64,000 nucleotides of DNA from an uncultured virus (IMG/VR IMGVR_UViG_3300042569_003179). Lineage: Duplodnaviria; Heunggongvirae; Uroviricota; Caudoviricetes. Shown here piece after piece: positions 26,928 through 63,268 of this stretch. How positions within the stretch are numbered: position 1 is the first letter of the stretch; each line of letters starts with the position of its first letter. Made by a program: the position numbers and the translations under genes. The notes under the pieces are model-generated. The model worked only from the letters and a program-made list of their open reading frames with translations. It was not told the DNA's origin and did no database searches. The stretch is taken from IMG/VR virus record IMGVR_UViG_3300042569_003179; one strand, given 5' to 3'.

Positions 26928-27170
26928 AGGGGACCGAAGCCCCCCGCAATGAGTCAGAATGCTATCGCTCAAACGGCGACGGCAGTCCTCTCGAATTTGA
27001 CGATTTTGTTAGCGTCTATGTTGTGCTTATGCAAGCGGCTTTCGGTAATTGGCTTGCTGTCGGTCGATTCCAGAGCGGACCCTCGAAAGGGAAATGGATC
27101 CGGGGCGATTCGAACGCCCGTGTCGCGCAGTAGTGACAACTACCTACACCCAGTTTTTAGCCGTATGGTA
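26928..27170 (-). ncRNA. ssrA: circularly permuted (two-piece) tmRNA
   Basis: acceptor piece ends GGGCG-TTCGAAT-CGCCC-CGGATCC-A (27095); 12-nt spacer; coding piece starts GGGTCCG..GGAATCGAC (27082); G3-U70 pair; tag 27013-26969 = ANKIVKFERTAVAV*; 5' start approximate. Confidence 0.92.
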
Positions 27171-27490
27171 GGGCTTTAACAATTATTACCCGTTACAGTT
27201 AAAAGTCGATGTAATCTCATACTGCCTAAGTAAGTTAAACAACTCAGTTTGAAGGTCTTCGAAGCCGCCCACAAGTTGATCCTGAGTGACCGCATAGCAA
27301 GGACCCACTTTAGAGCCAGCCCAAGGTATGATTTGTTTGTGCTCTAGAATCTTGTTCCTGTACTTAAGAAGTAGGGAGTTAATCCCGGAGGCTAGCTGAA
27401 CTTTATCGGATAGAACTATTTGTTTTAACATGGTGGGGGGGGTGTTGGTTACGGTGAGGGGTGGCAATAAAAGGTGATGTTGCAGGAGGG

Positions 27491-32541: not shown

Positions 32542-33150
32542 TTAGTTTGAACCCAGAACGAACCGAGCGAATCGCTTCACAACGATGTTTTCTCCCACAG
32601 TAGCAGCGAAGTTCTTGGTATAAGTTTCGATAGTCATCGTGCCATCTTTGATATAAGGTTGGTCCATCAGGGACATTTCCTTAAAGCGTTTGGCTACACG
32701 ACCTACAACAATTCTGCTACGCATTGCTTCTGGCTTTTTGGCAAGGTCTTCTTTGCCCATTTCGATTCGAGTCTCGTCCAATAGGATAGACTCAGGAATG
32801 TCGGATATTGAGACATAGCTTACAGAAGGGCACGCCGCAACTTGCATTGCCAAAGTGCGAACGAACTCTTGGAATGGCCCAGATTTTGCCACAAAATCAG
32901 TTTCGCAATTCACTTCGATGAGTACACCGATCTTGCCACCTGTATGGATATAACTGGATACAGTCCCTTCCAGGGTTGTACGGCCAATCTTTCCATCAGC
33001 TAAGACAATACCTTTTTGACGTAGCCAAGTGATTGCCCCGGCTTCGTCGCCTTGGGAGGCTTCCAGTGCTTCTTTGCAAAGCATCATGCCTGCCCCGGTT
33101 TTTTCACGGAGCGCTTTAATTTGTGGAATCGTGGGTTGGGTGTAAGTCAT
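32542..33150 (-). CDS. tsf: translation elongation factor Ts (short cyanobacterial-type form)
   Basis: LREKTGAGMMLCKEAL, EVNCETDFVAK and VGENIVVKRFARFVLG; 202 aa. Confidence 0.95.
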   Translation of the reverse strand: MTYTQPTIPQIKALREKTGAGMMLCKEALEASQGDEAGAITWLRQKGIVLADGKIGRTTLEGTVSSYIHTGGKIGVLIEVNCETDFVAKSGPFQEFVRTLAMQVAACPSVSYVSISDIPESILLDETRIEMGKEDLAKKPEAMRSRIVVGRVAKRFKEMSLMDQPYIKDGTMTIETYTKNFAATVGENIVVKRFARFVLGSN

Positions 33151-43170: not shown

Positions 43171-43284
43171 CCGATAGAATTTTGCTAACCTAAGTTAACA
43201 ATGCACAGGTATTAATACCTGAGGGGCTATCTCCCAAAGTCTCAAGAATTCTTGAGACGCTTTTTACCCAGATATTCCGGGCAC
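43171..43284 (-). mobile_element. 114-bp non-coding element, copy 1 (putative MITE)
   Basis: identical copy at 58707-58820 in unrelated flanks. Confidence 0.6.
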
Positions 43285-58678: not shown

Positions 58679-58910
58679 TGGCGGACCGGAGAATTGAACT
58701 CCTATTCCGATAGAATTTTGCTAACCTAAGTTAACAATGCACAGGTATTAATACCTGAGGGGCTATCTCCCAAAGTCTCAAGAATTCTTGAGACGCTTTT
58801 TACCCAGATATTCCGGGCACCATGTTGGCAGTAGATGCTAAGCTACTGGCCTTAGTATTAAAACTGAGGACTTAGACCTGTGCGTCTTACCTGGATTTCT
58901 CCAACCCGCA
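58679..58910 (-). ncRNA. degenerate tRNA-like RNA interrupted by the 114-bp element
   Basis: 5' TGCGGGT can pair with 3' GTCCGCC-A; T arm GGAG-TTCAATT-CTCC. Confidence 0.4.
58707..58820 (-). mobile_element. 114-bp non-coding element, copy 2
   Basis: identical to 43171-43284. Confidence 0.6.
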
Positions 58911-59159: not shown

Positions 59160-59230
59160 TCGGGATGGAAGGTACTGCCCCTTCTATTCTGCTTCCCAAA
59201 AGCAGTGTGATACTTTTCTACTACACCCCG
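59160..59230 (-). tRNA. tRNA-Pro(TGG)
   Basis: CGGGGTG/CATCCCG-A, loop TTTGGGA, atypical T loop GGCAGTA. Confidence 0.8.
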
Positions 59231-60746: not shown

Positions 60747-60902
60747 TGCCCCAACCAGGGGTTCGAACCTGGAGGCAAAAGAATCTATTTTCAATAAGAA
60801 GGTTTGATTTCAAGGCCACACCTTATCAACGTAGGTTCAATACGCCTATCAGCATTTACTCGTAGATTTGAACCCTGATGCCTGTTCCAACTACTTTGGG
60901 AC
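60747..60902 (-). ncRNA. 156-nt tRNA-shaped RNA with expanded anticodon arm
   Basis: acceptor GTCCCAA/TTGGGGC-A, T arm CCAGG-TTCGAACC-CCTGG, inner stems AGGCA/TGCCT and AATCTA/TAGATT. Confidence 0.65.
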
Positions 60903-60930
60903 TTTTTTCGTGTTTTGAACATTCCTAACA

Positions 60931-61008
60931 AAGTTAGGCTAGATGATTGTTTTTCCAATTTCGAAGGAGTTGATCGCTGAATCATCTAAGTTTGCAACTG
61001 CAAAACAA
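60931..61008 (-). ncRNA. CAGCAA-type stem RNA, copy 3 (diverged)
   Basis: AGATGATT-CAGCGA...AATCATCT, a compensatory change relative to copies 1-2; follows tRNA-Leu(TAG). Confidence 0.55.
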
Positions 61009-61015
61009 TGGCAAA

Positions 61016-61096
61016 TGCCCACCGGGGGACTCGAACCCCCACGCCTTTCGGCACATGGGCCTAAACCATGCGTGACTTCCATTCCACCAGGCAGGC
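61016..61096 (-). tRNA. tRNA-Leu(TAG)
   Basis: loop TTTAGGC, long variable arm. Confidence 0.9.
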
Positions 61097-61126
61097 TTTT
61101 TTCTAGGGGTTTTTCAAAGAAAAACA

Positions 61127-61284
61127 TTGAAGTGGAGAGGCTTGAACTCTCAATGTTAAGATTGCGTCTGGCTGCTACTTAACAGGTGGTTTCAACCATG
61201 AGCCAGGAAGTTGCTATTAGCATTTACAACCCCATCCGTATCGGCTGATTCCACACCCCCGTATACCAGTTCCGGCACACTTCT
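61127..61284 (-). ncRNA. 158-nt tRNA-shaped RNA with expanded anticodon arm
   Basis: acceptor AGAAGTG/CACTTCA-A, Leu-like D arm, T arm GAGAG-TTCAAGC-CTCTC, variable stem TGTTAAG/CTTAACA. Confidence 0.7.
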
Positions 61285-61302
61285 TCTTTCCTTAGAAAGA
61301 AA

Positions 61303-61383
61303 CTGGAGCGGAAGGACTCGAACCTTCATTGTCTTTCGACACTCGTTAACAGCGAGTTGCATTTCCAATTATGCTACACCCCA
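61303..61383 (-). tRNA. tRNA-Asn(GTT) with long variable arm
   Basis: loop CTGTTAA, G73, extra GTC-GAAA-GAC hairpin. Confidence 0.85.
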
Positions 61384-61544
61384 TTACACCCTGCGTTACG
61401 GCAGGGGACAGTAGGAAACACTCTGGGGTCGCATTGCGTCCCGGTGTGAGTACGAATCGTTACTTAAACCGGTTATTACTGACCCTTAGCTGCAAACCGG
61501 AAACCTGTGCTAAAGGACTTTTTCCTTTCCCGTTAGGGAAAGAA

Positions 61545-61618
61545 TGGGAGCGGTCGGGATCGAACCGACGACCTATCGGTTATCAACCGAGTGCTCTAGA
61601 CCGCTGAGCTACGCTCCC
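61545..61618 (-). tRNA. tRNA-Ile(GAT)
   Basis: cloverleaf, loop TTGATAA. Confidence 0.9.
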
Positions 61619-61824
61619 TTGGTGTTAAATTGTCTAGTTTCTGTCAATGGCGTAACCAGTGGCGTTACTACCAGCGACACCCTTAGTATAGGGTCTTGCC
61701 CCGGTAAAGTAAAGGACGGTTTGCCGCCCCCACCTTACGGACTTTTTCGCGTTTTTCGCTTAGCGAAAGTTGCCTTGCGATTAAACCTTACCAGGGTTAG
61801 CTGGTGGGTTAATCTTAGAGCAAA

Positions 61825-61951
61825 TTGACTACCGAGGACTTGCACCTCGACCCCCTCTGTCCAAAACTACTCGCAGGTACGGAACTTGGCCTTCGTTCTA
61901 TCTTACTGCTTTCGCCCAAAGGGACATGCTGACTTCTAACACTCGTAGTCA
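61825..61951 (-). ncRNA. 127-nt tRNA-shaped RNA with expanded anticodon arm
   Basis: perfect acceptor TGACTAC/GTAGTCA-A, D-like arm, CCCTTTG/CAGAGGG stem enclosing the insert, T arm CGAGG-TGCAAGT-CCTCG. Confidence 0.7.
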
Positions 61952-62494: not shown

Positions 62495-63268
62495 CTAAGC
62501 AACAAAATCCCCTAGCTGAATCCTGCCCTCCGGCACCCATTCTTTGACAATGGCCCTAATTATGGGCTTATTCGGTCTATACTGGGGGGGAATATCCGAC
62601 ATGTCCAAACTCTCGGGTCCAACCAAAACCCGTTGACGCTTAATGTAGGTCCCATGGGTGAATGCCCTAGGGAGTTCTTCCCATGGTTTCCCTATTTGTT
62701 TCAGCAAGGTTTTCATTTCTTCGCAAGTTACCCCTTGAAGGTCCTTATGTGAAAATAAACTCTGGGCATACATTGACACTGAGTTTTTCGTAGCGTCATT
62801 GAGCCTCCATAGGAAGTTCTTATAGACGTATTCCAAATTAGGGACATTCCATACCCTGCAGTCAAATACGGGGTACTGGCCTACCTTTTCAGGGAGATAT
62901 TCAGGTAAGTTTCCTGTGAAAAATGCCCCCGCTGTCGAGGCCAGTATTGATGTCAGCTTCTGGTATTTGCCCCTAAATAGAAATTCCCTATTGGAGTAAT
63001 TCCGCTTGTCAAGATGCCAATACAAAGTTATCTCATCGGATTGGCAATACCCTAGTAAAGCCTCACTTTCGGTAACAAGGTGCCTTGTGGTAGCAACCAT
63101 TAGGTTAACGAATCGCTCATCAAACGGCTTTTGGAGGTTATGGGTAAACGAACTAAAGGTCCTCCCATCGATGCGGCACATTAAAGGGCGGAAGGGATTT
63201 GCAGTCCTGCCTGCCTCTTTTTGCTCTTGTTCTTTTAGGGTGTCGCCCAGGGTGTCAGTGTGTGGCAT
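62495..63268 (-). CDS. tRNA(His) guanylyltransferase Thg1-like protein (3'-5' polymerase)
   Basis: RIDGRTFSSFT, KPFD, YCQSDEITL, QKLTS, FDCR and WR..DA.KNS motifs. Confidence 0.92.
   Translation of the reverse strand: MPHTDTLGDTLKEQEQKEAGRTANPFRPLMCRIDGRTFSSFTHNLQKPFDERFVNLMVATTRHLVTESEALLGYCQSDEITLYWHLDKRNYSNREFLFRGKYQKLTSILASTAGAFFTGNLPEYLPEKVGQYPVFDCRVWNVPNLEYVYKNFLWRLNDATKNSVSMYAQSLFSHKDLQGVTCEEMKTLLKQIGKPWEELPRAFTHGTYIKRQRVLVGPESLDMSDIPPQYRPNKPIIRAIVKEWVPEGRIQLGDFVA

What the first reader, a model, noticed from the sequence alone, without database searches (positions are those of the whole stretch)
60747..61951. Family of tRNA-shaped RNAs whose anticodon arm is replaced by a long structured insert
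Seen: three loci (60747-60902, 61127-61284, 61825-61951) and a decayed fourth (58679-58910) have a 7-nt acceptor stem, a T arm and discriminator A. Where the anticodon arm should be they carry 50-100 nt of nested stems. Two otherwise dissimilar members share the 14-mer GTAAATGCT(G/A)ATAG (60846-60859 and 61214-61227), in both cases in an apical hairpin loop, which argues for selection rather than decay. Known: T4 encodes two stable tRNA-like RNAs of unknown function (RNA C and D) in its tRNA cluster, and tmRNA and YrlA use a tRNA-like domain as a handle. Inference: the tRNA scaffold gives processing and stability to a functional RNA cargo (decoy, aptamer or guide). Alternatively these are intron-containing pre-tRNAs matured by the phage RNA ligases.
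Basis: partly seen in the sequence, partly recalled or inferred. Interest (0 to 1): 0.85.

Follow-up and report, generated by a model that had tools for sequence, protein, structure and literature searches.

The report
Pseudoknotted tRNA-shaped RNAs in phages
A large cyanobacterial virus carries three unrelated RNA genes built on a tRNA frame with an oversized arm where the decoding arm should be; one folds into a conserved knot and is shared with an unrelated Pseudomonas phage, so it is probably a working tool aimed at the host, like the still unexplained 'species 1' RNA of phage T4.

Summary
The loci are real (minus strand, tRNA cluster of a 279-kb cyanophage-like virus; no Rfam match) but are not one family.

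B (61127-61284) is the solid result. Homologues occur in five clades, including isolated phages S-CRM01 and Pseudomonas phage GP100 (62-81% identity among four compared). Covariation supports a class II tRNA frame with a much lengthened anticodon arm locked to the variable-arm loop by a pseudoknot: 24 of 50 pairs change on both sides, 0/500 shuffles match. The invariant part is a junction core, not the flagged 14-mer, which two clades lose. Discriminator and outer acceptor pairs drift, so charging is unlikely. B is the only DNA GP100 shares with this phage.

C is a separate family (3 sequences, near-invariant insert). A has only close homologues and no covariation. D is an initiator-type tRNA relic holding a dispersed 114-nt repeat.

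Splicing is unlikely for B, unproven either way for A and C. Best reading: non-decoding tRNA mimics that bind a conserved host factor (about 0.5). The scan noted this T4 RNA C-like class on other genomes; B and C sequence look-ups found nothing.

The parts
61127..61284 (-). RNA B, 158 nt: class II (Leu/Ser-type) tRNA frame with a lengthened, pseudoknotted anticodon arm. Acceptor 61284-61278 with 61134-61128, discriminator 61127
   Evidence: the model's next-best hits are tRNA-Leu genes
61259..61275 (-). B: D arm, 3 bp with GG in the loop
   Evidence: 100% of cells paired, 1 of 3 pairs with a double change
61184..61258 (-). B: lengthened anticodon arm. P2 61258-61254/61188-61184; P3 61248-61243/61197-61192; conserved bulge 61242-61236; P4 61235-61232/61201-61198; P5 61231-61227/61213-61209 with tip loop 61226-61214
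   Evidence: P3-bulge-P4 5' strand invariant at 14 of 17 positions in four clade representatives
61168..61206 (-). B: pseudoknot 1, arm strand 61206-61202 pairs with variable-loop strand 61172-61168
   Evidence: 30 of 30 cells paired in 6 rows, 3 of 5 pairs with double changes, one pair with three types; kept in held-out L416 although the model lacked it
61155..61183 (-). B: variable-arm stem 61183-61178/61160-61155. Its loop holds the pseudoknot strand and the conserved ACGYAA (61167-61162), which may pair with the bulge (possible pseudoknot 2: 61240-61237/61166-61163, not covarying)
   Evidence: 6 of 6 stem pairs with double changes; pseudoknot 2 has 3 of 4 pairs invariant and an A:C mismatch in the window clade
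61135..61151 (-). B: T arm
   Evidence: 100% paired, 3 of 5 pairs with double changes
60747..60902 (-). RNA A, 156 nt: 7-bp acceptor, weak or absent D stem, long first arm (60874-60868/60840-60834) tipped by the 14-mer (60859-60846), variable second hairpin, possible pseudoknot 60868-60863/60787-60782, T arm
   Evidence: 5 sequences at 92% mean identity, 0 of 43 predicted pairs with a double change; the pseudoknot is read from the sequence only and is invariant
61825..61951 (-). RNA C, 127 nt: acceptor, D arm, one long rod-like arm (core 61916-61861, with a loop-E-like GAA/AGUA juxtaposition; label recalled), T arm
   Evidence: 3 distinct sequences, 4 of 40 pairs with double changes; 5 of 56 core columns vary against 21 of 71 frame columns
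58679..58910 (-). Locus D: initiator-type tRNA relic with a degenerate anticodon arm; not of the same kind as A-C
   Evidence: its 3' end matches, at 95% over 37 nt, an intact CAT-anticodon tRNA in a relative
58707..58820 (-). 114-nt palindrome-rich dispersed repeat inside D
   Evidence: identical copy at window 43171-43284; 2 copies in G001, 2 in G002, 3 in G004; replaced by 174 other letters in a relative's contig
61685..61713 (-). sigma-70-like promoter heading the run Ile-Asn-B-Leu-A-His-Gly; similar sites at 62307-62279 (Glu, C) and 60377-60350
   Evidence: number of sites not above shuffles, 4 against 4.4; the three sites share repeated flanks (families D8 and D11)

Best explanation
A, B and C are three separate, unspliced, non-decoding tRNA-mimic RNAs. 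SHOWN (comparative): B keeps a tRNA elbow (D-loop GG, T loop) and folds its lengthened anticodon arm back on the variable-arm loop through a pseudoknot around a sequence-invariant core. It has passed on its own between cyanophages and a Pseudomonas podovirus. INFERRED from position and tRNA biology: they are co-transcribed with neighbouring tRNAs and cut out by host tRNA-processing enzymes, and the oversized arm keeps them out of decoding. INFERRED, least certain: the elbow plus the rigid core binds and ties up a host factor conserved from cyanobacteria to Pseudomonas, most likely a tRNA-handling or tRNA-attacking protein such as an anti-phage nuclease or tRNA-end-modifying toxin. The RNA would then be a decoy or inhibitor. 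D is a relic and not part of this.
For: Covariation in B: 95.3% paired, 22 of 50 pairs with double changes in 12 rows; 93.3% and 24 of 50 in 6 rows from five clades, 0/500 shuffles, slid controls at most 44% paired. A held-out homologue kept the pseudoknot and had a new perfect variable stem. Identity elements for charging drift. B is the only DNA match between GP100 and G001, and of 446 GP100 frames only PhoH has a convincing protein match, so no shared phage partner is apparent. In GP100, B lies outside any tRNA cluster, among small hypothetical genes near the left end. G001 invests heavily in tRNA upkeep: three RNA ligases, Thg1, a CCA-type nucleotidyltransferase head domain, CysRS, a Tyr/Trp-type synthetase, EF-Ts. 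The same genome uses a tRNA frame to display another module, CAGCAA, beside DUF2828. Contigs from RNA libraries cross A, B and C without a joint.
Against: No binding partner, processed end or phenotype was shown. The laid runs are contigs of relatives that may include DNA, and no silent control stretch was laid. Covariation rests on five clades, several pair changes on GP100 alone. An acceptor of only 4 bp in two clades weakens the processing and CCA step. The anticodon-like tip loop that would suit a nuclease decoy is absent in 2 of 5 clades. A has no covariation, and one excision gives a Leu(CAA)-like tRNA in 4 of 5 A rows. A short or very diverged phage partner would escape the GP100 comparison.
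Confidence: 0.5

Rival explanations
1. B's pseudoknotted core is itself the active site: a natural aptamer or ribozyme mounted on a tRNA frame for stability, binding a small molecule (for example a host alarm nucleotide) or cleaving RNA.
For: Invariant bases cluster in a bulge and a pseudoknot loop rather than in tRNA identity positions, the pattern usual in riboswitch and ribozyme cores (established knowledge). No shared phage protein is apparent.
Against: No Rfam riboswitch or ribozyme match, even at E up to 10. By eye the order of strands lacks the P3/L3 and P1.1 parts of HDV-like ribozymes (recalled consensus). An A-rich loop crossing a pseudoknot stem can be purely structural.
Confidence: 0.17
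2. They are RNA partners of a phage protein, like Y RNAs with Ro60, and serve a phage RNA-repair or storage complex.
For: G001, G003 and G005 encode DUF2828. In G001 and G005 it is followed by tRNA frames carrying a CAGCAA module, and one free copy of that module lies between B and A.
Against: DUF2828 is absent from S-CRM01 and GP100, both of which carry B. TROVE was found in 0 of 5 genomes. The motif scan of the window found the CAGCAA module in none of A, B or C. More plausible for A and C than for B.
Confidence: 0.15
3. They are intron-containing pre-tRNAs spliced by an unknown endonuclease and phage RNA ligases, like the 'enigmatic' Lak phage tRNA introns.
For: G001 has three RNA ligases. 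One excision gives a Leu(CAA)-like tRNA in 4 of 5 A rows, and a Gln-like one in 3 of 3 C rows with shifting register.
Against: No canonical product in 6 of 12 B rows (three of the four clades then held), and the window-clade products destroy the covarying variable stem. The pseudoknot ties the 'intron' to the 'exon'. No group I or II match. No RNA ligase is annotated in GP100. No joint inside A, B or C among the 10 joints listed. With 1042 excisions per row some tRNA-like products are expected; I ran no control for that.
Confidence: 0.08
4. They are decaying tRNA duplicates with accidental inserts.
For: Fits D. Not excluded for A, whose homologues are all close. Folding energies of A-C are not significant.
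Against: B's covariation and invariant core across hosts of two phyla. C's insert is better conserved than its frame.
Confidence: 0.05

Closest known systems
Phage T4 RNA C (rnaC, species 1 RNA, 139 nt; NC_000866.4 70908-71046) and RNA D
   Same: Annotated as a small stable RNA beside the tRNA genes. It has a T arm at the 3' end, a large insert, and a hairpin before the T arm whose loop is complementary to an upstream insert segment; that complementarity is kept in 3 of 3 aligned rows, without covariation. That its function is unknown is recalled.
   Different: No sequence relation beyond the T arm. The B model does not hit rnaC or rnaD. B keeps a full D arm and anticodon-stem base, and its pseudoknot uses an internal strand, not a tip loop.
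YrlA, the tRNA-like Y RNA (Rfam RF02553; Chen et al. 2014, PMC4201824, abstract and section 6 read)
   Same: A tRNA elbow joined to a non-tRNA module; found in phages.
   Different: YrlA is permuted (T arm before D arm, acceptor closed by a loop) and lies near Ro60. A-C have normal order and open acceptor ends, no RF02553 match, and no TROVE gene in G001, S-CRM01 or GP100.
Lak megaphage tRNAs with 'enigmatic' introns (Devoto et al. 2019, PMC6784885, passages read)
   Same: Oversized phage tRNA genes with conserved inserts.
   Different: There, removing the insert gives an assignable tRNA, and for one intron insert-free variants were aligned. For B no consistent tRNA is recoverable and the insert pairs with the variable arm.
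tmRNA tRNA-like domain
   Same: A's frame (weak D stem, helix abutting the T arm) resembles it.
   Different: No tmRNA call by ARAGORN or Rfam at A-C; the phage has its own two-piece tmRNA at 26929-27191.
Class II tRNAs (Leu, Ser), likely ancestor of B
   Same: 3-bp D stem and long variable arm; best non-family hits of the B model are tRNA-Leu genes; the tip loop AUGCUAA matches 6 of 7 bases of the Ser(GCU) anticodon loop of relatives.
   Different: The arm is about 75 nt instead of 17, pseudoknotted, with drifting discriminator and acceptor.

Membership tests
functional tRNA | 5-bp anticodon stem with 7-nt loop (U33, R37) directly after the D arm | tested here: not met
functional tRNA | conserved acceptor identity (7 bp, fixed discriminator) | tested here: not met
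   B: position 73 is A, G, C or T; outer pairs broken in S-CRM01 and L416. C: A or C
functional tRNA | elbow: D-loop GG and T loop on paired arms | tested here: met
   B invariant GG and T-loop bases; the window's C lacks GG but both homologues have it
functional tRNA | aminoacylation | not testable with these tools
   needs an assay
intron-containing tRNA (group I, group II or Lak type) | excision restores one consistent tRNA across homologues | tested here: inconclusive
   not met for B (0 canonical in 6 of 12 rows); possible for A (4 of 5) and C (3 of 3, shifting register); no chance control
intron-containing tRNA (group I, group II or Lak type) | group I or II core in the insert | tested here: not met
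   no Rfam match
intron-containing tRNA (group I, group II or Lak type) | spliced product in RNA data | tested here: inconclusive
   no joint inside A-C in 4 runs, but contigs drop rare forms
T4 RNA C family | sequence or profile homology | tested here: not met
T4 RNA C family | tRNA ends plus large insert, inside a phage tRNA cluster (works-like test) | tested here: met
   the GP100 copy lies outside a cluster
T4 RNA C family | discrete stable RNA in infected cells | not testable with these tools
   only contigs were available
YrlA / Y RNA | permuted order T-acceptor-D with Ro-binding ends; RF02553 match | tested here: not met
YrlA / Y RNA | Ro60 (TROVE) gene in the genome | tested here: not met
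   0 of 5 genomes; DUF2828 in G001, G003, G005 but not S-CRM01 or GP100
tmRNA | tRNA-like domain plus tag frame recognised by ARAGORN or Rfam | tested here: not met

The most novel reading that the evidence does not exclude
B is a stand-alone, horizontally mobile anti-defence RNA: a natural tRNA-mounted pseudoknot domain that neutralises a host tRNA-attacking enzyme or an immune signal in both cyanobacteria and Pseudomonas with no phage protein. Phage tRNA clusters would then be workshops where tRNA frames are repeatedly fitted with different cargoes (B core, C rod, A arm, CAGCAA module).
Probability: 0.3. Interest if true: 0.9.

Novelty: new variant of a known kind. Interest (0 to 1): 0.62.

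Why it matters
T4's species 1 RNA has long lacked a function (recalled). B gives this class a member with a covariation-backed fold, a defined core to mutate, and copies in two isolated phages, one a 50-kb Pseudomonas phage whose only DNA match to this virus is B. That makes the question directly testable. If B blocks a host tRNA-targeting defence, it adds a tRNA-mimic RNA to the known means of phage counter-defence. These genes are invisible to ARAGORN and Rfam, so more are probably missed.

Tried and rejected
Homologue hunts. Metagenomes: 11 of 34 real; 18 of the other 23 were re-tested by model, all negative, and 5 were not re-tested. Bacterial and archaeal genomes: 0 of 12. A: no GenBank phage match; no distant homologue among 119 and 59 pattern hits; none in S-CRM01 or GP100. 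C: the Caulobacter phage Kuura hit is 28 nt around the T arm only; 3 of 5 pattern hits real. D: no GenBank match.

Ideas dropped. A CsrA-type GGA site in B's bulge: single site, and the consensus is recalled. An HDV-like ribozyme: strand order lacks parts. The 14-mer as universal anticodon decoy: lost in two clades. A link between B and DUF2828: absent in two B carriers. Ro60 likeness of DUF2828 could not be tested: no solved relative by sequence, single-sequence model pLDDT 43 and not searched further, Atlas returns only DUF2828 clusters.

RNA runs. 4 of 7 were laid; all are contigs with small shares, so they give no ends, strand or level.

Literature. Ten searches found no description of these RNAs; most were seen as listings only. 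Passages read: PMC10690425, PMC6784885, PMC7824862, PMC9976931, PMC7609411; abstract and section 6 of PMC4201824. In PMC10690425's supplements 3 of 6 listed files were searched without a hit; files 1, 2 and 4 and three larger files were not seen, so B could be among its 10,006 candidate RNAs.

Full report
Setting. The window lies in a complete 279,339-bp virus record, G001, at offset 199,004. A two-piece cyanobacterial tmRNA and kinship of its tRNA cluster with S-CRM01 point to a cyanobacterial host; this is an inference. The four loci, called A (60747-60902), B (61127-61284), C (61825-61951) and D (58679-58910), are on the minus strand among ordinary tRNA genes. ARAGORN does not call them and Rfam has no credible match at E up to 10. 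Three similar promoter-like sites head the tRNA runs that contain them, although the site count alone is not above chance.

The observation. Acceptor and T arms are present as described, except that B has an A:A mismatch at 1:72. The 14-mer is exact in A and B and unlikely by chance: 1 of 3000 shuffles for this pair and 30 of 3000 for any pair. Beyond it the inserts are unrelated, so these are members of a class, not of one family. Folding energy does not distinguish A-C from shuffles; the evidence for structure is comparative.

B, distribution. BLAST found B unannotated in Synechococcus phage S-CRM01 (83% over 114 nt) and in Pseudomonas phage GP100. Pattern scans added virus contigs G002-G005 and 11 of 34 metagenome hits, and 0 of 12 hits in cellular genomes. 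The model later found a further copy in G006. These fall into five clades; four representatives are 62-81% identical.

B, structure. The fold is: acceptor, 3-bp D arm, then an arm of four helices (P2-P5) with a 7-nt bulge, a variable-arm hairpin and the T arm. A 5-nt strand of the long arm pairs with the variable-arm loop. On 12 rows 95.3% of cells pair and 22 of 50 pairs change on both sides. On 6 rows covering all five clades the figures are 93.3% and 24 of 50, with 0 of 500 shuffles reaching them and slid controls at most 44% paired. The pseudoknot pairs in 30 of 30 cells with 3 of 5 pairs covarying, and all 6 variable-stem pairs covary. The G006 copy was found with a model that lacks the pseudoknot, yet keeps it and has a new perfect 8-bp variable stem. 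I derived the structure from these sequences by eye, and several changes come from GP100 alone. A second pseudoknot between the bulge and the variable loop is possible but invariant, with one mismatch in this clade.

B, what is conserved. The P3-bulge-P4 strand is invariant at 14 of 17 positions and the variable loop at 9 of 17, against 3 of 14 in the acceptor and 5 of 13 in the tip loop that holds the 14-mer. The tip reads like a Ser(GCU) anticodon loop in this clade and GP100 and is one base off in S-CRM01. It is shortened in the G003 clade and replaced by an A-rich loop in G006. The discriminator is A, G, C or T, and the outer acceptor pairs are broken in two clades. Selection thus keeps the elbow and the knotted core, not the charging identity. 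The model's next-best hits are tRNA-Leu genes, which suggests class II ancestry.

B travels alone. It is the only nucleotide match between GP100 (first 50,000 of 50,547 bases) and G001. Among 446 GP100 frames only PhoH has a convincing protein match; three others have E of 0.003 or more and two are B itself read as protein. In GP100, B lies among small hypothetical genes near the left end, outside any tRNA cluster, and no RNA ligase is annotated. DUF2828 and TROVE are absent from both GP100 and S-CRM01. Any partner is therefore most simply host-encoded and conserved across two phyla.

C. Three distinct sequences were found. Four of 40 predicted pairs covary: two in the acceptor, one at the arm base and one within the arm. 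Only 5 of 56 insert-core columns vary, against 21 of 71 in the frame. It is a single rod with a loop-E-like juxtaposition (label recalled). The support is good but rests on few sequences.

A. Five sequences at 92% mean identity give 0 of 43 covarying pairs. The second hairpin changes in sequence and length and by eye still pairs. A strand near the T arm could pair with the first arm as in B, but it is invariant. A is plausible but unproven.

D. Its 3' end matches an intact CAT-anticodon tRNA with initiator features in a relative. 114 nt of its insert are identical to window 43171-43284 and recur 2-3 times in related phages away from any T arm. A relative's contig has 174 other letters in that place. 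D is a tRNA relic with an exchangeable repeat.

Splicing test. Of 1042 single excisions per row, none gave a canonical tRNA in 6 of 12 B rows, and the window-clade products break the covarying variable stem. Against my reading, one excision gives a Leu(CAA)-like tRNA in 4 of 5 A rows and a Gln-like one in 3 of 3 C rows; I ran no chance control. In four RNA-library runs (4 of 7 listed), contigs of related phages cross A, B and C with no joint inside them. Contigs can hide rare forms and may contain DNA.

Mechanism. I favour a non-decoding mimic that is processed with the tRNAs and binds a conserved host tRNA-handling or tRNA-attacking protein (0.5). The fold and lone transfer of B are shown; processing and target are inferred. 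Rivals are an aptamer or ribozyme core (0.17), a phage-protein partner RNA (0.15), an unknown intron (0.08) and decay (0.05, though likely for D). The genome's tRNA-repair and translation genes (275 of 300 predicted frames of 100 aa or more scanned) fit a conflict over tRNA. Two more tRNA frames beside its DUF2828 gene carry a different, repeated module, which shows the frame-plus-cargo principle in the same virus.

Comparison and novelty. The closest known RNA is T4 RNA C, which shares the layout and a possible loop-loop pairing but no homology. YrlA, tmRNA and group I/II introns fail their tests. Ten literature searches found no description, but parts of one large candidate catalogue's supplements were not seen. 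Earlier notes of this scan describe the same class on other genomes and the CAGCAA module; sequence look-ups for B and C and the look-up of relatives found nothing. Verdict: new variant of a known but unexplained kind; interest 0.62.

Noticed in passing
G001 194073-194199 and 193854-193965, minus (L404 1074-1200 and 855-966), outside the window: Two more tRNA frames with the anticodon loop replaced by an insert lie directly downstream of a 511-aa DUF2828/DUF7788 gene. Both carry a helix-plus-CAGCAA module; the layout recurs in G005.
   Followed up: partly
window 59038, 59577 and 60987 (motif starts, minus strand): Free hairpin copies of the same CAGCAA module, each just behind a tRNA gene (Met, Phe, Leu); kept in relatives.
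   Followed up: partly
window 43171-43284 and 58707-58820: 114-nt palindrome-rich repeat, 98-100% identical among copies in three phages, often near tRNAs or promoters; folding z -4.1; no Rfam match. Small mobile element or structured RNA.
   Followed up: partly
window 26929-27191, minus: Two-piece (permuted) cyanobacterial-type tmRNA that ARAGORN missed.
   Followed up: no
window 61384-61545, minus: The spacer between tRNA-Ile and tRNA-Asn is 79-87% conserved over about 140 nt in more distant relatives; possibly another structured RNA.
   Followed up: no
L036 2433-2591 (+); L005 1068-1184 (-); L026 1180-1296 (-); L020 1543-1623 (+): Further odd tRNA-shaped genes in relatives: a huge variable-arm insert, an anticodon-arm insert and an enlarged D region.
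   Followed up: no
L001 11238-11352, minus (S-CRM01): Weak YrlA match (35.9 bits, gathering score 69) although no TROVE gene was found in that genome.
   Followed up: no
L409 2034-2106 (GP100): tRNA with anticodon TTA (stop-reading) and encoded CCA, 2 kb from the B homologue.
   Followed up: no
L004, L033, L036, L052, directly 3' of the B homologue: Conserved trailer that resembles the start of a twister ribozyme (recalled resemblance); Rfam gave no such match at E 0.5 in the three of these loci scanned.
   Followed up: partly
window 59160-59230 minus; 62495-63268; 32542-33150; L400 11131-12555; L397 9631-10797: A tRNA found by Rfam but not ARAGORN (anticodon TGG by my reading); Thg1 next to the cluster; phage EF-Ts, CysRS and a Tyr/Trp-type synthetase.
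   Followed up: no
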